Positions 1,428-21,028 of a stretch of 26,516 bases of DNA are shown one piece after another. The DNA is from Oscillospiraceae bacterium (lineage in GTDB: Bacteria > Bacillota > Clostridia > Oscillospirales > Ruminococcaceae). Made by a program: the position numbers and the translations under genes. Every line of letters starts with the position of its first letter. The stretch's first letter is position 1. A model generated the notes under the pieces. The model made no database searches. It had not been told where the DNA came from and saw nothing but the letters and a program-made list of their open reading frames with translations. The stretch lies in NCBI GenBank assembly GCA_045611725.1, contig JAZKXQ010000208.1, positions 1-26,516 on the forward strand. The letters run 5' to 3'.

Positions 1428-1470
1428 GAAGGGGAAGTTGAGGAAGGAAAGAAGCTCACAAATCCCCTTC
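1428..1470 (-). promoter_or_regulatory. 5' leader hairpin upstream of scaffold gene
   Basis: Minus strand GAAGGGGA pairs with TCCCCTTC (8 bp) around a 27-nt pyrimidine-rich loop that contains an inner TGAG/CTCA pairing. Confidence 0.6.
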
Positions 1471-1494
1471 ATTTTGTTAAGTATCTTTTTTTTC
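1470..1494 (-). promoter_or_regulatory. Candidate phage late promoter L1
   Basis: Minus strand GAAAAAAAAGATACTTAACAAAATG; same motif as at 4760-4788 and 10729-10758; lies before scaffold and capsid genes. Confidence 0.6.
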
Positions 1495-3828: not shown

Positions 3829-4734
3829 TTATAATCCTGTTACTATATCGCTGTTACTGAATCCATCTGGTACTGGTTTTGAGTGTGTTCTTGAGCCTTT
3901 ACCAATTTTTATTCTTTTTCCAGACTTGGCCAAAGCTTGATATGTACCCAATAGATTCTTATAGCCTGTTTCCAATTCTTGATATGTTGATAGTCCTTTG
4001 TCTTTTTGCCATTTATAAGCTGTACCCAAAGTCAACAATAAATCAGGAAGAATAACTATATCTGTATTATTGGTTACATGTTGTTTTCTTACCCCGTCTG
4101 AATCTTTTACTGGTAGATTTGAGAAGTAGAAGAAAGAAACCTGTGTACCATCTTTGAAGCCTGGGAATAAGAATAAACGCTTTCCTCTCAGCTGGAAGTA
4201 ACCATTATAAGATTTTACTTGATACATACGTCTTTTCTGCCATTCTTCATCATCAATAGCAATCATAGGTAAACGTCTTGAAAAATCTACCAAAGTATTT
4301 ACAGAAATTGATTTATAGTCTGGTATCATCTCATCCAAAGGATATTCACACCAAGAACCCAAACATCTCCAAGTAATTCCATCTGATGTTACACCATCTT
4401 GCCCAGGTTTTAAATTCAAAGTAGCAGGAGAAACAGTGGAAATACCAGATGTAAGAGGCTGATAACGATAACCATCCATAGCATTACTTAAAACATACAC
4501 AGGAATTTGATTTTGATAATATTGTGTACCTTCTGCCCATTCAGAGTATGTTGTAAATGTAAATTCTTCCAACATTTCATGAAAATTTACAGTATCAACC
4601 AATTCGTCCAAAAGGGAATTCAAAACCTTTATATTTTCTTGGACATGTAATTCAGTAGAGTTGAAGTAATTACTGATATTACTATACATACCCTCTCTGG
4701 TCAATATGTTATCAAGAAGTTCTTTTGCTGTCAT
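3829..4734 (-). CDS. Tail tubular protein A / head-tail adaptor
   Basis: 301 aa; helical N-terminus (LLDNILTREG...VLNSLLDEL), YPL..PDY, LFLFP, and C-terminal LPDLLLTLG.AYKW..DKGL.Y pattern typical of podovirus adaptors. Confidence 0.62.
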   Translation of the reverse strand: MTAKELLDNILTREGMYSNISNYFNSTELHVQENIKVLNSLLDELVDTVNFHEMLEEFTFTTYSEWAEGTQYYQNQIPVYVLSNAMDGYRYQPLTSGISTVSPATLNLKPGQDGVTSDGITWRCLGSWCEYPLDEMIPDYKSISVNTLVDFSRRLPMIAIDDEEWQKRRMYQVKSYNGYFQLRGKRLFLFPGFKDGTQVSFFYFSNLPVKDSDGVRKQHVTNNTDIVILPDLLLTLGTAYKWQKDKGLSTYQELETGYKNLLGTYQALAKSGKRIKIGKGSRTHSKPVPDGFSNSDIVTGL

Positions 4735-4759: not shown

Positions 4760-4788
4760 CTTTACATTTATTAAGTATCTGTTTTTTT
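4760..4788 (-). promoter_or_regulatory. Candidate phage late promoter L2
   Basis: Minus strand AAAAAAACAGATACTTAATAAATGTAAAG in the 71-bp gap before the adaptor and nozzle block. Confidence 0.65.
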
Positions 4789-6252: not shown

Positions 6253-8355
6253 TTAAGCTGCCATACCTGAAACTTTCCATAAACCAATTATACTTGTACC
6301 ATTTGCTGTTGCTGTTGTGTATTCGTCAAGCGTAAAACCAGTTGCTGATTGACTTATTACACATATATGTCTGTTTGCCCATCCACTGACACTTCCATTA
6401 CCAAGAGTTGTATCACTACCCATTGATATATCTATAGAATAATATGCATCAACCATTTCAATTGGTAAAGTTACAGATTTACTATCACCAGAACTTGAAG
6501 TGGTGTTTGTAAAGTTGCTTGTTCTTCCGCCTTGTTCAACCCAGCCATCTGCATATTTACGATACCATGTATAATCATTTGATGATGTTGGTTCCTGAAA
6601 AGCTATTACATTATGTCCAGCAGGTGCCTCATCATCTGTGATATAACAAACCCAATCTGGATGTGTAGAAGCTATATTTTGAGTTGTATATTGAGAAAGT
6701 GTACCAACCCAATCAAAAACATTTGGTGCAGACACATTTGAAGAGTTTGCATTTACGGTTCCTACAGCCTGGATTTCTTGTGATAGATTATTTGTGATTG
6801 TTACATTATCGATACTTACACTTCCGCCACCTCCACCTGCATCAAGAGCTATGGTATCACCTGAGGCTTGGTTAAGTGTGAAAGACCCTTTTGTAACTCC
6901 CCCTTGTGTAATAGTTATCGTAGGATTGTTTACTGTAGGAATTGTAGGAGTACCTGATAGATCTGAATATGAACCCGATGTAGCTACTGTTGCCAAAGAA
7001 GGTGTTCCTGATAAATCTGAGTATACACCAGAAGTCGCTACAGTAGCCAAGGAAGGTTTATTCAAGATTTGTGCAAGACCTGAAGAAGCATTCCAATCAG
7101 CTTGAACGTTACTTACCAAAGAATCATAGGTTGTTACTTTGGCTGATGTAATTGTTGAGTTTATAGCATCCAATTGAGCCTGAGTAAAAGGAGCGTTATT
7201 TACTACATACTGGAAAGCCCATTGTACACCATCATACATATATCTGGTTGTTGCATTACTGTGATCTTCGTCTGATTCTACCAACGCATAGTCATTATTT
7301 GTAAGAGTGTAAGACTGACCTTTATAATAATATGGTCCACTTATCAAAGCAGCATGAGTAGCAAAGTTATCACCCTGAGCATCAGAAGTTACGTAGTTTG
7401 CTGCCATATTTGAGATAGAGCTGTTTACAAAGGCTTTATCAGCAAGTTGGTTTGATGAAGAAGTTGTAGATGGAATGTAGCTTTCAATAGTTGTTACATC
7501 AGAATCAAGAGCATATACTGAAAGATCTGGTTTATTCAAAATTTCACTTACACCAGTAGAAGAATTCCAATCTGAGTTGACCTGAGCTGCTGGTATAGAA
7601 GGTTTATTGGAAAGATCATTATAAGAACCAGAAGTAGCCACAGTTGCAAAAGTAGGTTTATTATTCAAATCACTATAATTACCAGAAGTTGCTACAGTTG
7701 CAAGAGTTGGCTTATTTAAAATCTGAGAAACACCCGACACAGCATTCCAATCACTATTTACTTGAGCAGCTGGGATAGTTGGTTTATTTGATAAGTCATT
7801 GTAGCTCCCAGTAGTCGCAACTGTAGATAGTGATGGTTTGTTCAGAATTTGAGATAAACCGCTATTTGAGTTCCAGTCACTATTTACTTGTCCAGTTGCA
7901 GATATTACAGGATTGGCAGGGTTTGTTTTATCAATTGAAATGTTTGAGCCTTGAGTAATATCTGTCAAAAGAGAAAGATCTGCAGCTGTTTTATTACCAG
8001 ACAACACAACATTATTAATAGAAGGTTTATTCAAAAGAGCTGTATAATCGTTTGTGTTATAGTCTGGTTGTACATTTGTTTGTTCCCAAGAGTAATTTCC
8101 TGAATCTTCTACGCATTCATAAAAATAATTATGGGTAAGACCACCAGAAGTAGCACCTTTATATTGTACCACTTGACCTACATTATCTGCAGAAGCTGTT
8201 GGTAATGTAGTAAACTGGGGTACAGCATCAAAGTTTTCATCTGTAATAATTGAAATATCAGTAGCTCCAATTGTACCACCTTGGACAGCAGCATCATATT
8301 GTGCTCTTGTAAGTTTATTTATATTCAAGGTAGATAATGTTGTTGAAGTAGGCAT
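6253..8355 (-). CDS. Tail fibre protein with NKP(T/S)-type repeats and gp53-like C-terminal domain
   Basis: 700 aa; repeated VNSDWNS.SG.S.ILNKP.LATVATSGSY.DL.NKPTIP units; C-terminal WYRKYADGWVEQGG...VTLPIEM motif typical of tail-fibre tip domains; RBS AAGGAG. Confidence 0.75.
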   Translation of the reverse strand: MPTSTTLSTLNINKLTRAQYDAAVQGGTIGATDISIITDENFDAVPQFTTLPTASADNVGQVVQYKGATSGGLTHNYFYECVEDSGNYSWEQTNVQPDYNTNDYTALLNKPSINNVVLSGNKTAADLSLLTDITQGSNISIDKTNPANPVISATGQVNSDWNSNSGLSQILNKPSLSTVATTGSYNDLSNKPTIPAAQVNSDWNAVSGVSQILNKPTLATVATSGNYSDLNNKPTFATVATSGSYNDLSNKPSIPAAQVNSDWNSSTGVSEILNKPDLSVYALDSDVTTIESYIPSTTSSSNQLADKAFVNSSISNMAANYVTSDAQGDNFATHAALISGPYYYKGQSYTLTNNDYALVESDEDHSNATTRYMYDGVQWAFQYVVNNAPFTQAQLDAINSTITSAKVTTYDSLVSNVQADWNASSGLAQILNKPSLATVATSGVYSDLSGTPSLATVATSGSYSDLSGTPTIPTVNNPTITITQGGVTKGSFTLNQASGDTIALDAGGGGGSVSIDNVTITNNLSQEIQAVGTVNANSSNVSAPNVFDWVGTLSQYTTQNIASTHPDWVCYITDDEAPAGHNVIAFQEPTSSNDYTWYRKYADGWVEQGGRTSNFTNTTSSSGDSKSVTLPIEMVDAYYSIDISMGSDTTLGNGSVSGWANRHICVISQSATGFTLDEYTTATANGTSIIGLWKVSGMAA

Positions 8356-10450
8356 ATTATATTACTCCTTATAAATCGAAATAAATTGTGGCACTTGAAG
8401 CTCCCCACCTTGAGGAATAGAAATCAAGCCCTTCTATAACTGAACGTGCGTCTGCTCTGAAGTGAATAGCTGTTATATTTGTATACATAAACATATCAGT
8501 AAAAGCATTTGAATTTGATACTGTTGTAAGAGCAGGGAAAGAAATAGTTGTAATATATGAACAATTATACATCATTTCTTTACATGCATAACTTCCAGAT
8601 ATTGATGATAAGTTTGTAAATGTTATACTTCTTACAGCTTGAGATTGATAAAACATACCTTCACAAGCAGATGTACCATTTATACTTGTAAGACTTGATA
8701 AATCTACTGTTATAGTGCCTGTTGATTGATATTGGTTTCTTGCGTCTATATTATCAAAAGCATGATAACAAGCCCTTGCACCATTTATTGCAGTAAGATC
8801 AGGGAAACTTATCGTAGATTGATTTTCAAAAGCTTTATGACAAAATGCATATGATAAACCAGAAGCCCCAATTGTTTCAACATCTGTAAAAGTAATTGAT
8901 GGAAGCTTATTTACAGGTATTATTGCACCATTATTATCTACACCACCAATGAAATTATCCAGTGTAGCTCCATATCTTCCACTTACACCATTATCTTTCA
9001 AAAATGCTGGAACTGCTTGATTTGGGTTTGTTCCTATTACAAATTTGGCCATTATTCGTTTGCCCCCCATTCTTTAAAGGTTACTACTGTAGAAATACCC
9101 CAAGCAAGATCTGTACCATCATTTGTCAAGAATTTACCAGCTTGGCCAGATGTTGATGGTATTGTACTTCCTCCAGCATCCAAGGCTATTGTGTCTCCTG
9201 TGGATTGATTCAAAGTAAATGAACCTTTGGTAACACCGCCCTGAGTAATGGTTATTGTTGGGTTATATACTGATGGGATCGTTGGCTTATTACTCAAATC
9301 ATTATAAGACCCAGTTGTAGCTACAGTTGATAATGTAGGCTTATTGAGAATCTGTGCTACGCCACTATTTGCATTCCAGTCGGCATTTACTTGTGCTGCA
9401 GGTATGGTAGGTTTGTTTGATAAGTCATTATATGATCCTGTAGTAGCAACAGTAGCCAAACCAGAAGTAGGAGTATAATCATTTGCATCTTCTGCAGCCA
9501 TAGTTCCCAAGGTTGGCTTATTCAATATTTCAGATAAACCAGATGTAGAATTCCAATCAGCGTTTACTTGACCTGTTGCTGAAATTACTGGGTTTGCTGG
9601 ATTTGTTTTGTCTATTGTGATATTTGATCCTTGAGTAATATCAGATAAAATACCCAAATCTGCAGAAGTCTTATTACCAGAAAGCGTTACAGAATTGATT
9701 GAAGGCTTATTTGATAATGTTGAATAATCTGAAATCCCTGGTTGTACACTTGTTTGAGACCATGAATATACACCACCTTCTTCTATACACTTATAAAAAT
9801 ATCCATTGGTGTATGTTGAATCTGTGACCCCTTTGTATTGTACTATCTGATCTGCATGAGAAATATCTGCTGTTGGCATTGTAACATACTGAGGCACAAA
9901 ATCACCAATCAAACCACCTGCATCCAAAGCAATAGTATCTCCAGAAGCTTGGTTCAAAGAGAAAGATCCTTTTGTTACACCACCTTGAGTAATTACGATG
10001 GTTGGATCATTTACTGTTGGTATGGTTGGGGTTCCAGTAAGATCAGAATAAGCACCTGTAGTAGCAACTGTCGCAAGAGAACTTTGATCAGCTGGTGTAT
10101 AACCCAAAGCACTTGTTACATCTGATGAATTGATCCCTGTAATATATCCAGCATCATTTGTAAAAGCACTTATATTGGTTGGGACTACTGGAATTGTTGG
10201 TTTGTTACTTAAATCATTATAATTGCCTGTTGTTGCCACTGTAGATAAATCAGATGGGTCAACAGGAGTATAACCAAGAGCAGATGTAACGTCAGAAGAA
10301 TTGATACCAGTAATAAAGCCTGAATCATTTGTAAGATCAGAAATGTTATCACCAGGCTGCAAAGCTGTGTCGGCAAGAGCCCCTTGAGCATCTGTAGCAA
10401 GTCCCAAATCAGATGAGGTTTTATTTCCAGATAAGGTAGTTCCGTTTATC
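6830..10450 (-). repeat. Protein-level repeat modules shared by the two tail fibre genes
   Basis: Multiple DWN...ILNKP and LATVAT(T/S)G.Y.DL..KP units; three TITQGGVTKGSF(T/S)LNQ..GDTIALDAGG modules; two (I/L)LxDITQGSNI.IDKTNPANPVISATGQ modules. Confidence 0.85.
8369..9052 (-). CDS. Leucine-rich-repeat / beta-solenoid protein (BspA-like), tail-associated
   Basis: About 26-aa repeats ISFPDLTAINGARACYHAF, VDLSSLTSINGTSACEGMF, ITFTNLSSISGSYACKEMM, ISFPALTTVSNSNAFTDMF. Start moved to ATG at 9052 (TAATG overlap with the upstream stop). Confidence 0.6.
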   Translation of the reverse strand: MAKFVIGTNPNQAVPAFLKDNGVSGRYGATLDNFIGGVDNNGAIIPVNKLPSITFTDVETIGASGLSYAFCHKAFENQSTISFPDLTAINGARACYHAFDNIDARNQYQSTGTITVDLSSLTSINGTSACEGMFYQSQAVRSITFTNLSSISGSYACKEMMYNCSYITTISFPALTTVSNSNAFTDMFMYTNITAIHFRADARSVIEGLDFYSSRWGASSATIYFDL

Positions 10451-10704
10451 TGAGGCTTATTAAGCAACTCATTATAATTATTTGTACCACCTCCACCTCC
10501 CCCAGCAATAGTAGGAAGATCAACATATCTATTTATACCATCACCTACTTTCAAAGTGTTCGTATCTGATGTATATACAATTTCACCTTTATCAGGAACT
10601 GGGTTTGTATCTATCCAGTCCTGTTCTATAGCATTACGAACAACCCCACGTATCTTTTGTTTTTTTGGGGTGGTGGTTATTGAATTTACGATAGAAGAAG
10701 TCAT
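9052..10704 (-). CDS. Tail fibre protein with Mtd_N-like N-terminal domain
   Basis: N-terminal DWIDTNPVPDKGEIVYTSDTNTLKVGDGINRYVDLPTI resembles the major-tropism-determinant N-terminal motif; the rest is the same repeat set as 6253-8355. Confidence 0.75.
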   Translation of the reverse strand: MTSSIVNSITTTPKKQKIRGVVRNAIEQDWIDTNPVPDKGEIVYTSDTNTLKVGDGINRYVDLPTIAGGGGGGTNNYNELLNKPQINGTTLSGNKTSSDLGLATDAQGALADTALQPGDNISDLTNDSGFITGINSSDVTSALGYTPVDPSDLSTVATTGNYNDLSNKPTIPVVPTNISAFTNDAGYITGINSSDVTSALGYTPADQSSLATVATTGAYSDLTGTPTIPTVNDPTIVITQGGVTKGSFSLNQASGDTIALDAGGLIGDFVPQYVTMPTADISHADQIVQYKGVTDSTYTNGYFYKCIEEGGVYSWSQTSVQPGISDYSTLSNKPSINSVTLSGNKTSADLGILSDITQGSNITIDKTNPANPVISATGQVNADWNSTSGLSEILNKPTLGTMAAEDANDYTPTSGLATVATTGSYNDLSNKPTIPAAQVNADWNANSGVAQILNKPTLSTVATTGSYNDLSNKPTIPSVYNPTITITQGGVTKGSFTLNQSTGDTIALDAGGSTIPSTSGQAGKFLTNDGTDLAWGISTVVTFKEWGANE

Positions 10705-10728: not shown

Positions 10729-10758
10729 CTTTACATCTATTAAGTATTCTTTTTTTTC
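10729..10758 (-). promoter_or_regulatory. Candidate phage late promoter L3
   Basis: Minus strand GAAAAAAAAGAATACTTAATAGATGTAAAG; overlaps the stop codon of the sigma-like gene and precedes the tail-fibre block. Confidence 0.62.
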
Positions 10759-11141
10759 TTCCATTTGTGGATAAACTTATCTTGGTAGTCTTTTTTATCA
10801 TCTTCAGTCATCCAGTCTCCATCACAATTTCCGACTGAATAATTGAAAAATAACTCTTCTCTCCTGAGTTGTCTGTCTCTCGTTACCTTTTTGATAATAT
10901 CTCTCCCAATAACAAGCTTCCAAAAACCAACACAATCTTTATGGTTCAAATCATATTGCTTATATTTTTCCAAACACTTCAGTAAAATATCTTGTATTAA
11001 ATCTTCTTTATTTACATATGACGCATTCTTACGATAAACAAAATCACGTATAATCAATAAGAAATACATACATAATTGTTTTGTTGGTTCTTTTTGAGAC
11101 AATTTCAATTCAGCCAAAAATGAGTTGTTATCTATATACAT
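10740..11141 (-). CDS. T4 gp55-like (sigma70 region 2-only) late transcription factor, putative
   Basis: Start moved to ATG at 11141 (TAA-A-ATG coupling), 133 aa. YIDNNSFLAELK...YFLLII...NASYVNKEDLIQDILLKCLEKYKQYD...GFWKLVI follows the gp55-family pattern as I recall it (YV.NK.FL..., F..IA, NF.NY.Y.EDMI.D....C......FD, AYFT.II). Confidence 0.55.
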   Translation of the reverse strand: MYIDNNSFLAELKLSQKEPTKQLCMYFLLIIRDFVYRKNASYVNKEDLIQDILLKCLEKYKQYDLNHKDCVGFWKLVIGRDIIKKVTRDRQLRREELFFNYSVGNCDGDWMTEDDKKDYQDKFIHKWKKKKNT

Positions 11142-11142
11142 T

Positions 11143-11502
11143 TTAATTATTTGCGTCTTCTTGTGGTATTTGTACAATAGTCATCGAGTCTTCGTGCTCG
11201 ACTTTTTTTGGTCCATTACGGTATTCATCAATCAAATCAAACTTTCTTTTTTCGTTATCAGCCTTCAGCATTTCTACTTTTTGCTTCTTCAATCCGATAG
11301 AGATCTTTCCAATTGTTTCGAGGGTTTGTACTCGAAGTTCAAGATCCATATTATTAATATTGTTATGTAAAGACTGTGTAAGCTCTACAATCAAGCAATC
11401 TATATCTCTTTCTACATTATCAGCATTCTTCACTTTTCTATTGGTGTGAAGCTCTTTTATGTAGTCCTTAATATCCTTCTTGACTATTGGTTTTTTGCTC
11501 AT
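11143..11502 (-). CDS. Terminase small subunit candidate
   Basis: 119 aa, helical with a coiled-coil segment and C-terminal KVEHEDSMTIVQIP strand as in many TerS; adjacent to TerL but downstream of it. Confidence 0.42.
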   Translation of the reverse strand: MSKKPIVKKDIKDYIKELHTNRKVKNADNVERDIDCLIVELTQSLHNNINNMDLELRVQTLETIGKISIGLKKQKVEMLKADNEKRKFDLIDEYRNGPKKVEHEDSMTIVQIPQEDANN

Positions 11503-11503
11503 T

Positions 11504-13000
11504 TTATCTTCTTCTTGTTCTTGTAAGATCTATTCCAGGATCAAGTACTCTATCCAAATCATGTTCAATTTCTGTTTGGATAAGTCTTTGTTGTTCTCTA
11601 TAAATTCTCTTGTTCCGTTCTTCTTCTGTTTCAAATCTCTCAGACTCCATAGCGTTTTTCATACCAGTAATTGAATAAATAAAGGCTGATGTCATGTGAG
11701 AGAATTCATCGTGCTTCAATTTTTCACTCTTCCAAACACTATTTATTGGGTCATAGTCATAAATAGACGAGTTTAAGCACTCGATGAGTCTATGAGTAGT
11801 ATCTTTGTTGAAATAGCAATTCTTCAGTTCAGATCGTGCTATATCAATTTGTTCGTTTTGTTTCAATCTTGGGGCTATCCAGACTTGAAATCCGTCCTTT
11901 TCTGCTTGTGCTCTTCTTGTAATTCCCATAGACCATTCAGTGTTATCACCATCATGAGGAAACACCAAACGTCTGATTTGAGGGTAATTTCTTCTCAACC
12001 AATCCCTATAGAAAGGCCAGGATTCCATACTTCTTTCATAACAATCTACAAATCTCCAACGATTATTATAGTATTGATAAACAGTAATAGCAGTCGAGTC
12101 ATAGTGCCCGATGTCAAATGCAGCAAAAGTCTCAAACTGAGGTACTACTTCATATTTTCCTACATGTTCTGGGTATTTATTGAGTTCAGGACCAAAGATC
12201 GAGCCCCTTACCTCGTTGCCATATTGACCAAATAAGAAGCGTTGTTGGTCTGATTTTGGAAGCTTCATAAGGACTTTCTCTATATAATCCTCTTCAATAT
12301 TTTCTATGTTATCAATTGGATTAAGAGTAACAGCTATCATTTCTTTTGGATCAAGCTTTATTTCAGGATCGAGGGGGTTTATATGTTCATGGTATTCTTT
12401 ATAAGTCCAGTGAGATTTGGTGGTAGGATTCAGAACATCAATCTCCATCAACTTACAGAATTTATCTTCTTTATAGTGTTTTACCTTTTGAGCAAGACGT
12501 GTACGAAGCTTCTGGACTGATAAGAAGTTGATTTCACTACATTCATCAAAGAAAAGAGTAGCAAATTCAGTACCCAAAAGTCTTTCTACGTCTTTTTCAT
12601 TACCAATACCACGGAAGATTATTTGAGAACCATTGGGAAGAGTAAAGATAGATTCCCCCCAATTCATCCCATTTCCCATCCAAGCTTTATAAAGAGCAGG
12701 ATATTTGATTTGAAGGACTTTTGGGAAGGTATCACGTATAATAGCTGTTTTCAGAGAATTGAATGTTTGACGGGCTATAAGATGACGAGAACCAGGATAA
12801 AGAACAGCTCTGGACACTACCTTATCAACACTACGAAATGATTTACTGCTACGAGATCCACCCACCAATAAGACTTTCAAAATAGCAGAGTTTTGGTAAA
12901 AGGCTTCATTAAGAGCTTTTACTCGATCTTTTTTACTGTCGAGTTGCTCTTGTGTTATAACACCCTTATCCAGTAATCTACTTATAACATCTGCAATCAT
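11504..13000 (-). CDS. terL: Terminase large subunit
   Basis: Walker A-like GGSRSSKS, Walker B FFDECSE, motif LNP, nuclease motif AAFDIGHYDSTAI, and FPHDG; 498 aa. Confidence 0.92.
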   Translation of the reverse strand: MIADVISRLLDKGVITQEQLDSKKDRVKALNEAFYQNSAILKVLLVGGSRSSKSFRSVDKVVSRAVLYPGSRHLIARQTFNSLKTAIIRDTFPKVLQIKYPALYKAWMGNGMNWGESIFTLPNGSQIIFRGIGNEKDVERLLGTEFATLFFDECSEINFLSVQKLRTRLAQKVKHYKEDKFCKLMEIDVLNPTTKSHWTYKEYHEHINPLDPEIKLDPKEMIAVTLNPIDNIENIEEDYIEKVLMKLPKSDQQRFLFGQYGNEVRGSIFGPELNKYPEHVGKYEVVPQFETFAAFDIGHYDSTAITVYQYYNNRWRFVDCYERSMESWPFYRDWLRRNYPQIRRLVFPHDGDNTEWSMGITRRAQAEKDGFQVWIAPRLKQNEQIDIARSELKNCYFNKDTTHRLIECLNSSIYDYDPINSVWKSEKLKHDEFSHMTSAFIYSITGMKNAMESERFETEEERNKRIYREQQRLIQTEIEHDLDRVLDPGIDLTRTRRR

Positions 13001-13420: not shown

Positions 13421-14710
13421 TTACTTCTCCACAGATATATAATCCTTTTGAGAGTTCAGGATCAGGGAAGCTACTTCAAATGCGTTTTTGATTTGAGACT
13501 TAATACAAGCTGCAGAATCAATAATAGTGTCATCTGGTATAATCCTTCCTACCTTTCTCCAAACTGATGAGAAGATTTTACGGTATTTCCATGGTAGTTC
13601 TTTGGATATTCTGTATAATTCATAACCTGCACCTGGAACATATCCTTCTCTGAGGGCTGATAAAGTGGAAAGAATAGTATCTTCAACATGATCTTTCTTT
13701 TCCGACAAACCAGCTACAGAATCAGAACCAACCTTTATTTTGCAGATCTTACTTTCAAACCGTGCAACTCTTTCCTTCACTTGGTTCTTTTCTTCCCCAG
13801 AGTTTTTGTCAGACTTCTTCAATCTTTGGATATAGGCTGATAATTCTTTGGTCTTTTTGAATTCAATCAATGTAGCGTGTCTTCTGATGTCAATTTTGGT
13901 TACACAAGAAGATAGAGTCTGTAGATCCAAGAACAAATCAGCTTTTTTATTTTGAGGGAAGTATGTAGTATCAATATGTACATAGGAGCCAATTCCCTTC
14001 AGTTGATTTTGTTTCATGGCATCTACACACTCTTCGGAGCAACTCCCAATCACCACCAAAGGTTTATGTTGTTGTGCTGCTTGAGAGGCTGGGATAGACA
14101 ATTCAGATAATGTAATTTGATCCTTAATAAAGAAAACTGGATCAGAAAAAACACAAGACCCAGTAGCTGTATTTGCAAAGAAAGGATCAGACATACCCAA
14201 ATTCAAATAGTAGCCTGTCAATTGTTCATATTCAATCCCTGCGTCAAACTTCTCTTCAATAATATAATGCCCATCCACACCATTATGTTTTATAGCTTCT
14301 GTAATAGGTTCAGCAATCTCTCTATCTGAATTGGCAGGAATCATAGCTACGTTAAATAAGTCTTTTTCAACATCTACAGGCATTTTTTCAGCATCAATAG
14401 TAGCAGTAATCCAACCAATAAGATCTTTCAGTTTTGGTAAATCTTTTCTATCAAGTCTTTTTACCATCTCAGAAGCCAAAAGCATAACAGATGTACTACT
14501 ATCACCTGTTTCTTCTACTTGTTTCTTACTGGCCTGACGTAAAAGTTTGAACATGTGCGTTGGGTCTTGGATTTTATAAGCAACAGAGAAACCGTCTTTT
14601 GTGCAGACAGCTTCATTGTTTTTATAGTCAATAGTTACAAGTCTTCCTTTTGGCCCAAGAGTCCCTACAACCAAATCTACCTGTTTTTGAGTTTTCTTAT
14701 CAATTTTCAT
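13421..14710 (-). CDS. groEL: Compact GroEL-like (group I) chaperonin
   Basis: TLGPKG, TKDG.SVA, GDSSTS (for GDGTTT), ANSD, KPLVVI, ERVAR, IKVG, EKKDHVEDT...EGYVPGAG, IIDS; 429 aa versus about 545 for bacterial GroEL. Confidence 0.9.
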   Translation of the reverse strand: MKIDKKTQKQVDLVVGTLGPKGRLVTIDYKNNEAVCTKDGFSVAYKIQDPTHMFKLLRQASKKQVEETGDSSTSVMLLASEMVKRLDRKDLPKLKDLIGWITATIDAEKMPVDVEKDLFNVAMIPANSDREIAEPITEAIKHNGVDGHYIIEEKFDAGIEYEQLTGYYLNLGMSDPFFANTATGSCVFSDPVFFIKDQITLSELSIPASQAAQQHKPLVVIGSCSEECVDAMKQNQLKGIGSYVHIDTTYFPQNKKADLFLDLQTLSSCVTKIDIRRHATLIEFKKTKELSAYIQRLKKSDKNSGEEKNQVKERVARFESKICKIKVGSDSVAGLSEKKDHVEDTILSTLSALREGYVPGAGYELYRISKELPWKYRKIFSSVWRKVGRIIPDDTIIDSAACIKSQIKNAFEVASLILNSQKDYISVEK

Positions 14711-14721
14711 ATCTTTCCTTC

Positions 14722-15279
14722 TTATTTGTTATCCAGTAATTGTTTCAAAAGTCCAGTCAAATCAGCCACTTGTTGTTCCAAAGTTTCAATCTTTTGTTGT
14801 TCTGGAGTCTTTTGTTTTTCTTTATCCTTCCAAACCCTTCCCAATAATTTACATGTATCATCGGGAGAAATTTCAACAGCAAAATCATAAATCAACTGTT
14901 CTTCATCAAATTGAATATCATCTGGAAAACCTGGTCGAAACATTCTGTACATTTGGTTGAATTTTTCTTTCCAGGGGTATAATTCTGATAATTCGCTTGG
15001 TTCATATTGTTTATTTTGAAAGTCTGAAAAAGTGAAGTTACGTTCAAAATCTTCATATGAGTCCTGATAGTAGATTTTATGGCCTGGTTTAAGTCTTGTA
15101 AGAGTCAGTTCACCAGTATTGATTTCCATAAAAGGTACAAGCTCATATAAGTGTTTTTTTGCCTTCAGTGATCCAGTCTTATTATAGCATAAACGAAAGA
15201 CCAATCTATGAGGCATTTGAGATCTGAACTGAGACCTTTTTTCATAATCCATATCATCTTTATAATCAAATTCTGCCAT
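14722..15279 (-). CDS. Conserved-type hypothetical phage protein with C-terminal coiled coil
   Basis: 185 aa; TAATG coupling to groES; C-terminal IETLEQQVADLTGLLKQL coil; resembles from memory proteins normally encoded just after the capsid gene. Confidence 0.65.
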   Translation of the reverse strand: MAEFDYKDDMDYEKRSQFRSQMPHRLVFRLCYNKTGSLKAKKHLYELVPFMEINTGELTLTRLKPGHKIYYQDSYEDFERNFTFSDFQNKQYEPSELSELYPWKEKFNQMYRMFRPGFPDDIQFDEEQLIYDFAVEISPDDTCKLLGRVWKDKEKQKTPEQQKIETLEQQVADLTGLLKQLLDNK

Positions 15280-15518
15280 TATTTATCATCTCCATCTTCT
15301 ACAAACAAAGCATCTTCACCAAAAATATAACTATACCGAGTGTCGATTTTGCGGTTGTTTCCTTTATAAAAATAGACAATACAACCCTCTTGAATATAAT
15401 CAGGCACTTCTACACCAGTTTTTATCACTGTACCTTTGGATAATTCAGATACAGAGAAGTTATTTTGGTCTGCATGTTCTTCAATAATAATAATATCGTG
15501 TAAAGGTATTAAATTCAT
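15279..15518 (-). CDS. groES: GroES-like co-chaperonin
   Basis: MNLIPLHDIIII matches GroES N-terminal M.I.PLHD.V.V; then KGTVIKTG and IQEG.IVYF; 79 aa; one gene upstream of groEL. Confidence 0.75.
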   Translation of the reverse strand: MNLIPLHDIIIIEEHADQNNFSVSELSKGTVIKTGVEVPDYIQEGCIVYFYKGNNRKIDTRYSYIFGEDALFVEDGDDK

Positions 15519-16465: not shown

Positions 16466-16494
16466 ATTATATTATATTTAATAAAAATTTACAA
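16466..16494 (-). promoter_or_regulatory. Sigma70-type promoter
   Basis: TTGTAA-N17-TATAAT, preceded by TTAAAC; the ATG of VRR-NUC begins 7 nt after the -10. Confidence 0.7.
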
Positions 16495-17635: not shown

Positions 17636-17934
17636 TTGGTTGGGTTTGGTGAGACTTTATTCCAGAGAGTTCGTTTTGTGGTATACCATCCTTACATAAA
17701 AATGATATAAAAATTGGTTGGGTTTTGGTACGGATTTGTGGGCTCTCAAGGACTCAAAAACAACGTCATAAACACGTCATAACATACGTGTACTCTTTAA
17801 TAGTTAAGAGCTTAAGTACATAAATAATAAAATAAATAGATAAATAACCAAACCAAATAAATAATTAAATAATTAAAATACAAGATTTAAGTTTGGAGCT
17901 TAATAACGAACTATCTGGAATTAACCAAACCAAA
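17636..17934. repeat. Symmetric iteron-like repeats in AT-rich divergent region (origin or control candidate)
   Basis: TTGGTTGGGTTT(T)GGT at 17636 and 17714; opposite-sense TAACCAAACCAAA at 17845 and 17922; central tandem ACGTCATAA; long A/T tract. Confidence 0.5.
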
Positions 17935-19965: not shown

Positions 19966-20376
19966 ATGATAAATAATATCCCTGATTTCGCAACATTTAT
20001 AATTCCAATTGAAGCTTATGAAAACGACCATGATCTACCAGCACCAACAAAAAGAAATGAATTGGTGTGGGAAGATGAAGTAAAACCAGAACCAAAGAAA
20101 GATATTGAAAGAAAGGAATTTGGATCTGCTATATTGATTTCTTGTATGGGTAAAACTGTTATAAAAGTCAAAGGTAGAGATGGTAAAGAATATAACAAAT
20201 TTACCATTGATGAAAAGAATGATTCCGATTTGGTAGATTTCCTTGATGGTCGTTATAGTGAATTGAAGATAGGCTCAGACTTATTTACGAAAGATAGTTG
20301 GGGTGGAATAGAAAAAAACAACAAATTCTGGCTATCAAAACGTGAAGCACAAGAATGCCAACAACTATTCAAATAA
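19966..20376 (+). CDS. Hypothetical protein
   Basis: Start moved to ATG at 19966 behind AAAAGG; the longer annotated N-terminus runs through the leader hairpin. Confidence 0.68.
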   Translation: MINNIPDFATFIIPIEAYENDHDLPAPTKRNELVWEDEVKPEPKKDIERKEFGSAILISCMGKTVIKVKGRDGKEYNKFTIDEKNDSDLVDFLDGRYSELKIGSDLFTKDSWGGIEKNNKFWLSKREAQECQQLFK

Positions 20377-20386
20377 GGGGGGTAAA

Positions 20387-21028
20387 ATGAGATTCAACAA
20401 CGGAAGTAATCACTATAAACATACACAAGCAAAATACAAAAGGTTTATAGATGGGGAATGGATGGTTAATGGCTTCACAGATTTTGACTCAACATACTTG
20501 GAAGATGATAGGTTTTTTATTCTCGTGGAAGATAAAAACTATAAAATCCAAAATGAGAAGTCTGCGAAATTCCAACTGAGCAGAATGAAACAATTTGCCA
20601 AGTACTTCTCTCTCCCTTTCCTTGGTATCATGACGAAATCAATTGTTCCTGATATTGATAAACACAAAGAATTGGAATACAAAGCAAGAGTACCACTCCA
20701 CAAATGTAAGGTAGTGGCTCTTGTAACAAATATGTATGATGGAGAAAGACTTGAAACACCGGCGGTAATAACATCTGATGAAAACGCACAAGCCAACTTC
20801 AACTTCAACGATATTCAAGCTTGTTTATTTGAGTGGATGGATAGAAATAAATTGATTACTGAAGCAGAAAAACAACAATATCGTGAACTGTACAAAGTAA
20901 AAAGACAAGAATGGTGGATGAGTGAGTTGCGGGATGAAATTATAACACAACTGGCTGATGAAGGGTTGAATAAAGAAGGAAACGACTACTTGAAGGAACT
21001 TGTTGAAGAAGCAGGAGATATGAAATGA
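20387..21028 (+). CDS. PD-(D/E)xK-like nuclease-fold protein (putative)
   Basis: GFTDFD......FFILVEDK motif; start at ATG 20387 behind AAGGGGGGT. Confidence 0.45.
   Translation: MRFNNGSNHYKHTQAKYKRFIDGEWMVNGFTDFDSTYLEDDRFFILVEDKNYKIQNEKSAKFQLSRMKQFAKYFSLPFLGIMTKSIVPDIDKHKELEYKARVPLHKCKVVALVTNMYDGERLETPAVITSDENAQANFNFNDIQACLFEWMDRNKLITEAEKQQYRELYKVKRQEWWMSELRDEIITQLADEGLNKEGNDYLKELVEEAGDMK

What the first reader, a model, noticed from the sequence alone, without database searches (positions are those of the whole stretch)
10740..11141. T4 gp55-like mini sigma factor in a small podovirus-like genome
The 133-aa protein follows the gp55 / sigma region-2 pattern and has no region 4 HTH. gp55-type late sigmas are best known from large T4-like myoviruses, where activation needs gp33 and the gp45 sliding clamp; neither is visible here. 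It sits between terminase and tail genes, and a matching -35-less motif precedes three structural blocks. Together these suggest a self-contained late transcription switch.
Basis: partly seen in the sequence, partly recalled or inferred. Interest (0 to 1): 0.8.

Follow-up and report, generated by a model that had tools for sequence, protein, structure and literature searches.

The report
Clamp-free gp55-like mini sigma factor
A roughly 35-kb uncultured gut or rumen phage encodes a 133-residue relative of the phage T4 late sigma factor gp55 that lacks T4's sliding-clamp tether and helper genes, and it probably redirects the host RNA polymerase to a phage-specific motif found in front of every virion gene block.

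Summary
Window 10740-11141 (minus strand) is a real 133-aa gene under strong purifying selection (dN/dS about 0.08).

- **Family.** It belongs to the T4 gp55 family by three tests. Profile-profile comparison against gp55-like proteins gives 98.5% probability (E 3e-15). A family profile hits T4 gp55 (PDB 7D7C) at E 1e-11. A confident model (pLDDT 92) superposes best on gp55 (Z 11.7, 116 residues), then on sigma region-2 domains.
- **What is missing.** It has no region 3/4 and no T4-type clamp-binding C-terminus; its tail is basic.
- **Genome context.** A complete 35,087-bp relative shows no gp33, clamp or polymerase gene.
- **Polymerase docking.** A predicted complex with the binned host's beta-prime places its 2.2-like helix on the clamp helices (ipSAE 0.80; best control 0.00). 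This may reflect likeness to solved complexes.
- **Promoter-like motif.** A5-N2-RATACTTAAYA occurs three times in the window and six times in the complete relative. It is always on the coding strand, between genes, ahead of virion blocks. No sigma-70-type promoter lies there. It is not T4's TATAAATA.

That the protein acts as a late sigma is inferred, not shown. No expression data could be obtained. Earlier notes of this scan describe similar mini-sigmas with an A-tract/ACTAAT motif in other roughly 30-kb rumen phages. Verdict: a new variant of a known kind.

The parts
10740..11141 (-). Gene for the 133-aa gp55-family mini sigma (P0001). It comprises a sigma region-2-like bundle (about residues 2-92), a helix-loop-helix (about 93-132) and a basic tail, KWKKKKNT.
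10729..10757 (-). Motif copy L1 (A-tract + AATACTTAATA + GATGTAAAG). It overlaps the last six codons and the stop codon of the sigma gene and ends 24 nt before the tail-fibre start codon.
4760..4788 (-). Motif copy L2 (A-tract + GATACTTAATA + AATGTAAAG), 25 nt upstream of the 301-aa tail protein gene (3829-4734).
1466..1494 (-). Motif copy L3 (A-tract + GATACTTAACA), 105 nt upstream of the 379-aa gene (221-1360). In the complete relative that gene precedes the major head protein gene.
11143..11502 (-). 119-aa gene (P0025) of unknown function, abutting the sigma gene (stop codon one base before the sigma ATG). A homologue sits immediately upstream of the mini-sigma gene in all three lineages examined. 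It is a candidate cofactor, by inference only.
   Evidence: no family or structure hit
16466..16494 (-). Sigma-70-type promoter-like site (TTGTAA-17-TATAAT) ahead of the VRR-NUC gene. It is the candidate host-sigma promoter of the operon that ends with the mini-sigma gene. No motif copy lies upstream of that operon.
   Evidence: consensus match only
11504..13000 (-). Large terminase gene, upstream neighbour in the same operon (context).
9052..10704 (-). Tail-fibre gene, the first gene downstream of motif L1 (context; candidate first late gene of that unit).

Best explanation
The 133-aa protein is a trimmed, divergent member of the T4 gp55 family of late sigma factors. It is made from a host-sigma-dependent operon (VRR-NUC nuclease, GroES/GroEL-like pair, terminase, 119-aa protein, sigma). 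It docks through its region-2.2-like helix (residues about 43-58) on the clamp helices of the host RNA polymerase beta-prime subunit. Its following helix-loop-helix lies near the zipper and lid, as in gp55. It directs the polymerase to late promoters that lack a -35 element and whose invariant core is RATACTTAAYA, preceded by five to eight A's. Those promoters head all six virion and lysis transcription units of the roughly 35-kb genome. Unlike T4, it has no sliding-clamp-binding tail and the phage has no gp33 or clamp gene, so it would work in a clamp-independent (T4 'basal') mode.

Shown by computation: homology, fold, the layout of the predicted interface, and the distribution and conservation of the motif. 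Inferred: that it acts as a sigma, that the motif is its promoter, where transcription starts, and that the clamp plays no part.
For: **Homology**
- A profile of the P0001 clade (19 sequences) against 103 gp55-like proteins gives hhalign probability 98.5%, E 3.3e-15, over columns 2-92.
- A profile including distant relatives hits T4 gp55 (PDB 7D7C chain F, residues 9-135) at E 1.1e-11 and SigH region 2 at 1.3e-6.
- 8 of 11 family members match PHROG 234, 'late sigma transcription factor'.
- One relative found by the clade profile (P0023) matches gp55 genes in 1852 phage records, mostly of T4-type phages.

**Fold**
- The model has pLDDT 92.3.
- The best PDB match is gp55: Foldseek probability 1.00, TM 0.57; Z 11.7, rmsd 2.7 A, 116 residues.
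- Next come sigma-2 domains at Z 8-10.

**Key residues**
- gp55 positions N13, R57, F86 and Y97 (the -10 pockets, PMC7892883) align with N5, R37, Y63 and F73.
- E70 and D74 (clamp-helix contacts) align with D47 and D51.

**Predicted complex** with beta-prime 1-480 of the binned genome
- ipSAE 0.80 against a best control of 0.00. This mark was reached by 58 of 80 solved complexes and 2 of 110 mismatched pairs. Runs agree in at least 47% of contacts; partner pLDDT is at least 72.
- Contacts run from beta-prime 380-407 (clamp helices) to sigma residues 43-58 and 18-24.
- Lower-confidence contacts run from residues 93-105 to the zipper (35-38) and lid (361-362).

**Motif**
- [AG]ATACTTAA occurs 19 times in the related phage DNA scanned (about 100 kb in all). 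Every copy is on the coding strand and between genes; the position counts rest on 18 of them in 95 kb.
- All 7 hits of AGATACTTAAYA in the 2.2-Mb bin lie on phage-derived contigs.
- The six sites in the complete relative precede the portal, a 64-aa ORF (directly after a terminator-like hairpin that follows the head gene), a 162-aa fibre or decoration gene, the 379-aa gene, the tail protein and the tail fibre.
- The core is invariant across strains while the flanks vary.
- No sigma-70-type promoter lies at these sites.

**Selection:** dN/dS is 0.08-0.09.
Against: - Start sites and timing are therefore unknown.
- P0001 alone scores below Pfam's Sigma70_r2 cut-off.
- Three of gp55's seven pocket residues (L54, H95, T99) and one of three clamp-helix contacts (E77) are replaced.
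- The motif is not TATAAATA.
- The motif could equally be a duplex site centred near -22 ahead of the variable TGTAwAr element, read by a different protein.
- The deep alignment used for the confident model consists largely of gp55-like proteins.
- The complex may score well because sigma-2 and gp55 complexes with beta-prime are already solved.
- The host link rests on binning only; no CRISPR spacer matches.
Confidence: 0.62

Rival explanations
1. The motif is a duplex binding site centred near -22 for a separate phage activator, for example the conserved 119-aa neighbour or an unannotated early protein. That activator would help host sigma-A use the weak, variable TGTAwAr element as a -10, as I recall the Lpa site working at phage P1 late promoters. 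The gp55-like protein would then have another role, such as competing with host sigma for beta-prime to shut off host transcription.
For: If TGTAwAr (TGTATAAT before the portal gene) is taken as the -10, RATACTTAAYA falls at about -27 to -17 and the A-tract at about -34 to -30 (positions counted). P1 Lpa is described as binding a conserved sequence centred at -22 (PMC3152322). The 119-aa gene is always next to the sigma gene.
Against: The TGTAwAr element is missing or degenerate in a third of the sites, while ATACTTAA is invariant. An invariant 8-nt core is what a gp55-type sigma that reads only a -10 element predicts. The protein keeps four of gp55's seven DNA-pocket positions (N5, R37, Y63, F73). 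No DNA-binding family was found for the 119-aa protein.
Confidence: 0.15
2. It is a true late sigma but not self-contained. Like T4 gp55 or phage Mu C, it would depend on a DNA-tracking or other co-activator supplied by the host (the beta clamp) or by an unrecognised phage protein such as the 119-aa neighbour acting as a gp33 analogue.
For: T4 gp55 alone gives only weak, supercoil-dependent basal transcription (PMC2988020). Phage Mu is reported to enlist the host beta clamp for late transcription (PMC12867686, title and abstract only). The 119-aa gene is tightly linked to the sigma gene in three lineages.
Against: The hydrophobic-acidic clamp-binding epitope that ends T4-type gp55 proteins is replaced by a basic tail. 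By eye I saw no clamp-binding-type peptide in the protein. The 119-aa protein shows no similarity to gp33 or to anything solved.
Confidence: 0.15
3. The gene is a decayed or exapted remnant of gp55 with no role in transcription, and the motif is unrelated (for example a processing or packaging signal).
For: The individual Pfam and PHROG scores are weak, and the family is very small: 8 representatives in 1.8 billion proteins.
Against: dN/dS is about 0.08. The model is confident and gp55-like. The polymerase-contact helix is retained. The gene's position is syntenic across phages whose sigma proteins are only 37-38% identical. The six co-oriented intergenic motif copies sit ahead of gene blocks, which does not suit a packaging site.
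Confidence: 0.05

Closest known systems
Bacteriophage T4 gp55 late sigma factor (PDB 7D7C/7D7D), acting with gp33 and the gp45 sliding clamp
   Same: - Sigma region-2-like domain followed by a helix-loop-helix, with no regions 3/4.
- N-terminal Y-x-x-N segment.
- Acidic 2.2-like helix predicted to sit on the beta-prime clamp helices.
- Presumed recognition of a short promoter element without a -35.
- Best sequence-profile and structural match.
   Different: - 133 aa against 185 aa.
- The C-terminal hydrophobic-acidic clamp-binding epitope is replaced by a basic tail.
- No gp33, gp45, clamp loader or DNA polymerase in the roughly 35-kb genome.
- Pocket residues H95, T99 and L54 are replaced.
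- The candidate promoter is A-tract + RATACTTAAYA, not TATAAATA.
- The gene sits next to the terminase rather than between uvsW and genes 47/46, as in T4-type contexts.
- The putative host is a Clostridia bacterium.
Sigma factors of phages phiEco32 (gp36) and 7-11, which I recall as podoviruses
   Same: A phage without its own RNA polymerase encodes a sigma that retargets host polymerase to phage promoters (PMC8948821, PMC4331800; abstracts).
   Different: From my own knowledge, those are two-domain ECF-like sigmas (regions 2 and 4) reading -35/-10 promoters in roughly 77-kb genomes. This one has region 2 only and belongs to the gp55 family.
Bacillus phage SPO1 gp28 and gp33/gp34 sigma cascade
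   Same: Successive replacement of host sigma-A by phage sigmas for middle and late genes in a Bacillota host (PMC3152322; PMC13401047 abstract).
   Different: SPO1 is a large myovirus. From my own knowledge its sigmas are not of the gp55 family and recognise bipartite promoters. SPO1 late transcription is reported to need a gp45-like protein.
Phage P1 Lpa late promoters
   Same: A conserved element immediately upstream of the -10 (centred at -22) marks late promoters. This is the model for the main rival reading (PMC3152322).
   Different: Lpa is an activator working with host sigma-70 and SspA, not a sigma-like protein. No Lpa relative was detected here.

Membership tests
T4 gp55 late sigma family | Sequence-detectable sigma region-2 homology domain (gp55 segment 2) | tested here: met
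   hhalign of the clade against gp55-like proteins: probability 98.5%, E 3.3e-15. Family profile against PDB gp55: E 1.1e-11. P0001 alone against PHROG 234: only E 0.027.
T4 gp55 late sigma family | Conserved N-terminal segment 1 (T4 Y10; N13 pocket residue) | tested here: met
   Y2 and N5 are invariant across the family alignment and align with Y10 and N13. The aromatic at T4 position 23 is a serine here.
T4 gp55 late sigma family | Fold: sigma-2 bundle plus helix-loop-helix as in 7D7C | tested here: met
   Model pLDDT 92.3. Best match 7d7c_F: Z 11.7, rmsd 2.7 A, 116 residues aligned (model 2-119, gp55 10-152). The model's alignment is rich in gp55-like sequences.
T4 gp55 late sigma family | Helix H3 acidic residues (E70, D74, E77) that dock on the beta-prime clamp helices | tested here: inconclusive
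   D47 and D51 are kept; E77 aligns with L54. The predicted complex places residues 43-58 on beta-prime 380-407: ipSAE 0.80, best control 0.00. The mark was reached by 58 of 80 solved complexes and 2 of 110 mismatched pairs; runs agree in at least 47% of contacts; partner pLDDT at least 72. This is a prediction only and may reflect solved look-alikes.
T4 gp55 late sigma family | Pocket residues reading the -10-like element (N13, L54, R57, F86, H95, Y97, T99) | tested here: inconclusive
   N5, R37, Y63 and F73 are kept or conservatively replaced. F34, V71 and K75 differ (residue list from PMC7892883).
T4 gp55 late sigma family | C-terminal hydrophobic-acidic sliding-clamp-binding epitope (segment 4) | tested here: not met
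   The C-terminus is KFIHKWKKKKNT (basic). The T4-type sequence aligned beside it ends in SLDFLY plus acidic residues.
T4 gp55 late sigma family | Partner genes gp33 and gp45 (with clamp loader) in the same genome | tested here: not met
   No PHROG or Pfam hit to a clamp, gp33, clamp loader or polymerase among the ORFs of 79 aa or more in the window, or in the remaining 9 kb of the complete 35,087-bp relative. Very divergent analogues cannot be excluded.
T4 gp55 late sigma family | Late promoters with TATAAATA at -13 to -6 | tested here: not met
   TATAAATA has 6 matches against 2.9 expected. By comparison with the ORF table, all four minus-strand copies lie inside coding sequence; the other two are on the + strand. 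The recurrent intergenic element is RATACTTAAYA.
Sigma-70 family (Pfam Sigma70_r2 / r4) | Region 2 above Pfam's gathering score | tested here: not met
   19.7 bits against a cut-off of 24. The structural similarity to sigma-2 domains is nevertheless clear: Z 8-10 over about 88 residues.
Sigma-70 family (Pfam Sigma70_r2 / r4) | Region 4 helix-turn-helix for the -35 element | tested here: not met
   The protein is 133 aa. The model shows only the sigma-2 bundle and one helix-loop-helix. There is no Sigma70_r4 hit.

The most novel reading that the evidence does not exclude
In this clade of small phages the clamp tether of gp55 has been replaced by a short basic DNA-anchoring tail: KWKKKKNT here, a NUMOD3 DNA-binding motif in relative P0018, and a Lys/Arg-rich tail in P0019. 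That tail would grip the A-tract lying directly upstream of the -10-like core. Together with the always-adjacent 119-aa protein, acting as a gp33-like or anti-sigma partner, it would form a two-gene late switch that needs no clamp and is not coupled to replication. That would make it one of the smallest free-standing promoter-specificity devices known for a bacterial RNA polymerase.
Probability: 0.2. Interest if true: 0.72.

Novelty: new variant of a known kind. Interest (0 to 1): 0.55.

Why it matters
[quoted passage not shown] There it is tied to DNA replication through the sliding clamp. Here the same protein family appears in a roughly 35-kb phage assigned by binning to a Clostridia genome. 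It lacks the clamp-binding peptide, gp33 and any clamp gene, and it comes with its own distinct promoter element.

If confirmed, this would show that the sigma-2-only design can work as a free-standing late switch. It would supply a natural 133-residue sigma with a compact, defined promoter for dissecting how little of a sigma is needed. It would also give a simple rule for annotating late operons in a clade of uncultured gut and rumen phages. The literature searches here returned no paper describing a gp55 relative of this kind. Notes of this scan report similar cases on other DNA.

Tried and rejected
- **T4-type late promoters.** TATAAATA gives 6 hits against 2.9 expected, and none is intergenic ahead of a gene block. 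Rejected.
- **Direct tblastn of the protein against 50,697 phage records.** No match.
- **Search of one genome per 185,579 species.** No relative outside the window's own genome.
- **hhalign of the shallow close-homologue profile against a single gp55.** Uninformative (Neff 1.2, E 0.17). Replaced by the family-against-family comparison.
- **First AlphaFold model from 17 near-identical sequences.** It was mediocre (pLDDT 71.5). It gave only weak, though sigma-enriched, fold matches. Superseded by the deep-alignment model.
- **The 119-aa neighbour as gp33.** No Pfam, PHROG, PDB-sequence or Atlas support. Function left open.
- **The 228-aa plus-strand ORF (20342-21028, the same length as gp45) as a clamp.** No support.
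- **CRISPR-spacer or other short matches linking the phage to the binned genome.** None outside phage contigs.
- **Promoter co-variation in phages with diverged sigmas (L010, L011).** Each has a similar TAACTAAT-TGT(A/T)AAG element right after its sigma gene. Too little sequence is held to tell repeats from chance.
- **Contexts of the short bridging homologues P0020 and P0021.** The contigs are too short to be informative.
- **Complex prediction.** The machine was unreachable at the first try; the same request was accepted later.

Full report
**What is at the coordinates.** Window 10740-11141, read on the minus strand, is an open frame of 133 codons from ATG to TAA. It follows the 119-aa ORF at 11143-11502, whose stop codon lies one base before its ATG, and that ORF follows the large terminase gene (11504-13000). 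Thirty-five bases downstream begins a 550-aa tail-fibre gene (9052-10704). Sixteen homologues at 79-98% identity exist in metagenomes. Comparing the gene between strains gives dN/dS of 0.08-0.09, so it is a real gene under strong constraint.

**The phage.** The window is a whole 26.5-kb contig of a fragmented 2.2-Mb metagenome bin. A relative about 90% identical, IMG/VR UViG_3300028888_000034, is 35,087 bp with overlapping ends and is rated complete.
- The window covers all of it except about 9 kb. That missing part holds the portal N-terminus, LRR proteins, a collagen-like fibre, a holin, a glycine-rich protein and the major head protein.
- No DNA or RNA polymerase, clamp, clamp loader or gp33-like gene was found in either part.
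- The head protein is about 30% identical to those of Myxococcus phages Mx8/Mx9 and Stenotrophomonas phage BUCT555. From memory those are short-tailed phages. 'Small, podovirus-like' is therefore reasonable, but the genome is about 35 kb.
- The bin's beta-prime is 72-75% identical to those of Oscillospiraceae, Acutalibacteraceae and Clostridiales MAGs, and its GC content matches the phage's (33.6% against 34.8%). Binning is the only host link.
- The bin contains pieces of at least one further strain of the phage.

**Is it a gp55-type sigma?** Taken alone, the protein gives only borderline matches:
- Pfam Sigma70_r2 at E 7e-4, below the curated cut-off.
- PHROG sigma family 1740 at 6e-4 and the gp55 family 234 at 0.027.

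An exhaustive profile search of 1.8 billion representatives found only eight clusters. Two are clear relatives (P0018, P0019, E about 1e-22). Five are more distant (E 6e-8 to 5e-4). One of these, P0023, matches gp55 genes in 1852 phage records, mostly of T4-type phages.

Three independent tests then settle the relationship.
1. A profile of the P0001/P0018/P0019 clade, compared with a profile of 103 other gp55-like proteins, gives 98.5% probability, E 3.3e-15, over residues 2-92.
2. A family profile hits the solved T4 gp55 (7D7C chain F, residues 9-135) at E 1.1e-11.
3. With a 115-sequence alignment the AlphaFold model reaches pLDDT 92.3.
   - Its best PDB match is gp55: Foldseek probability 1.00, TM 0.57; Z 11.7, rmsd 2.7 A over 116 residues, spanning both the sigma-2 bundle and the following helix-loop-helix.
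   - It is followed by about 25 sigma region-2 domains at Z 8-10.

Caveat: that alignment is rich in gp55-like sequences, so the model is not independent of the sequence result.

Other gp55-like hits that I inspected sit in classic T4-type contexts, uvsW-55-47/46. The P0001 clade, next to a terminase in a small genome, is the unusual one.

**Residue-level comparison.** The functional residues come from the gp55 cryo-EM paper (PMC7892883) and the alignments.

| T4 gp55 residue | Role | Here |
|---|---|---|
| N13 | -10 pocket | N5 (invariant in the family) |
| R57 | -10 pocket | R37 |
| F86 | -10 pocket | Y63 |
| Y97 | -10 pocket | F73 |
| L54 | -10 pocket | F34 (changed) |
| H95 | -10 pocket | V71 (changed) |
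| T99 | -10 pocket | K75 (changed) |
| E70 | clamp-helix contact | D47 |
| D74 | clamp-helix contact | D51 |
| E77 | clamp-helix contact | L54 (changed) |

The T4 C-terminal clamp-binding epitope (hydrophobic-acidic; PMC2988020) is absent. The protein ends in KWKKKKNT. P0019 also ends in a Lys/Arg-rich tail. P0018 carries a NUMOD3 DNA-binding motif there.

**Predicted docking on RNA polymerase.** I folded the protein (11-row alignment) with residues 1-480 of the bin's beta-prime (24-row alignment).
- Median ipSAE was 0.80 against 0.00 for the best of three controls. That mark was reached by 58 of 80 solved complexes and 2 of 110 mismatched pairs. Runs agreed in at least 47% of contacts, and partner pLDDT was at least 72.
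- The confident contacts join beta-prime 380-407 to sigma residues 43-58 and 18-24. I identify beta-prime 380-407 as the clamp helices by their DLNDLYRRVINRNNRL...EKRMLQEAVDAL sequence.
- Lower-confidence contacts join sigma 93-105 to beta-prime 35-38 and 361-362, which I take to be the zipper and lid.
- This is the arrangement described for gp55. Because such complexes are solved, the pass shows likeness and does not prove that this copy binds.

**The promoter-like motif.**
- In the complete relative there are six. They lie before the portal gene, before a 64-aa ORF (directly after a terminator-like hairpin that follows the head gene), before a 162-aa fibre or decoration gene, before the 379-aa gene upstream of the head gene, before the 301-aa tail protein, and before the tail fibre.
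- The related phage DNA scanned (about 100 kb in all) holds 19 occurrences of [AG]ATACTTAA. All are on the coding strand and all lie between genes.
- Position counts on 18 of them (95 kb) give A at five consecutive positions (16-18 of 18), two variable bases, an invariant ATACTTAA with R before and YA after, then a looser TGTAwAr.
- In the 2.2-Mb bin, AGATACTTAAYA occurs seven times, all on phage-derived contigs.
- No sigma-70-type -35/-10 pair lies at L1-L3.
- T4's TATAAATA does not mark any gene block.
- L1 overlaps the last six codons of the sigma gene, so the Lys-rich tail and the A-tract are the same DNA.
- The operon that contains the sigma gene (about 17.5 to 10.7 kb) has no motif copy. 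It does have a TTGTAA-17-TATAAT site at 16494-16466.
- This layout fits a cascade in which host sigma makes the mini sigma, and the mini sigma then turns on virion and lysis genes.

**What remains open.**
- The invariant 8-11-nt core could be the -10-like element read as single-stranded DNA, as with gp55. That is my preferred reading, because the invariant element is the same size as T4's.
- It could instead be a duplex site at about -22 ahead of the variable TGTAwAr, read by something else.
- The adjacent 119-aa gene has homologues immediately upstream of the mini-sigma gene in all three lineages, but it matches no known family or structure. Calling it a cofactor is speculation.
- Divergent relatives carry a similar TAACTAAT-TGT(A/T)AAG element right after their sigma genes. 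Too little of those genomes is held to test co-variation.

**Comparison and novelty.** The protein belongs to the gp55 family by sequence and fold. It fails three features that define the T4 system: the clamp-binding epitope, the gp33/gp45 partners, and the TATAAATA promoter. It therefore works like gp55 in its clamp-independent basal mode rather than like the full T4 late machinery.

[quoted passage not shown] My literature searches returned no paper describing a gp55 relative of this kind. Earlier unchecked notes of this same scan describe gp55-like mini sigmas with an AAAAAACTAATTTA motif in about 30-kb rumen phages. That resembles the A-tract plus ACT(T)AAT core seen here, so this is probably one member of a wider, still unpublished group. 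I class it as a new variant of a known kind, of moderate interest.

Noticed in passing
window 11143-11502 (-); L010:1-456; L011:9639-9998: A 119-aa protein of unknown function always sits immediately upstream of the mini-sigma gene. This holds in three lineages whose sigmas are only 37-38% identical (pairwise E 2e-16 and 7e-10). It has no Pfam, PHROG or PDB match.
   Followed up: partly
window 17636-17647, 17714-17725 (-) and 17845-17856, 17922-17933 (+): There are two exact copies of AAACCCAACCAA on the minus strand. Two near-copies (TAACCAAACCAA) lie on the plus strand. All lie in the non-coding stretch of roughly 17.6-17.9 kb, next to the divergent early region. At up to 2 mismatches the window holds 13 matches against about 4 expected. 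They could be iterons of an origin or operator sites.
   Followed up: partly
window 13421-15518 (-): A shortened GroEL-like protein (429 aa, Cpn60_TCP1 hit on residues 12-88 only) lies with small neighbouring ORFs in the same operon as the terminase and sigma genes. It is conserved in relatives (L003, L011). Another note of this scan already covers it.
   Followed up: no
G000 contigs C345, C320, C344, C119, C67, C374: The same bin holds fragments of at least one further strain of this phage, 80-90% identical to the window's. This suggests strain mixtures broke the assembly. The phage contigs may have been binned by coverage or composition rather than by physical linkage.
   Followed up: partly
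L009 about 14540-14585 (G001 about 32540-32585, minus strand): A terminator-like hairpin (CCCCTC...GAGGGG followed by a T-run) follows the major head gene. It is immediately followed by a motif copy, as expected if the motif starts a new transcript after termination.
   Followed up: no
window 6800-10250: The two tail-fibre genes (6253-8355 and 9052-10704) share several families of internal 65-216-nt repeats at 61-78% identity, indicating modular, recombining fibre domains.
   Followed up: no
L010:481-966 (protein P0018): One mini-sigma relative carries a C-terminal NUMOD3 motif, a DNA-binding module of homing endonucleases, at the position where T4 gp55 carries its clamp-binding peptide.
   Followed up: partly
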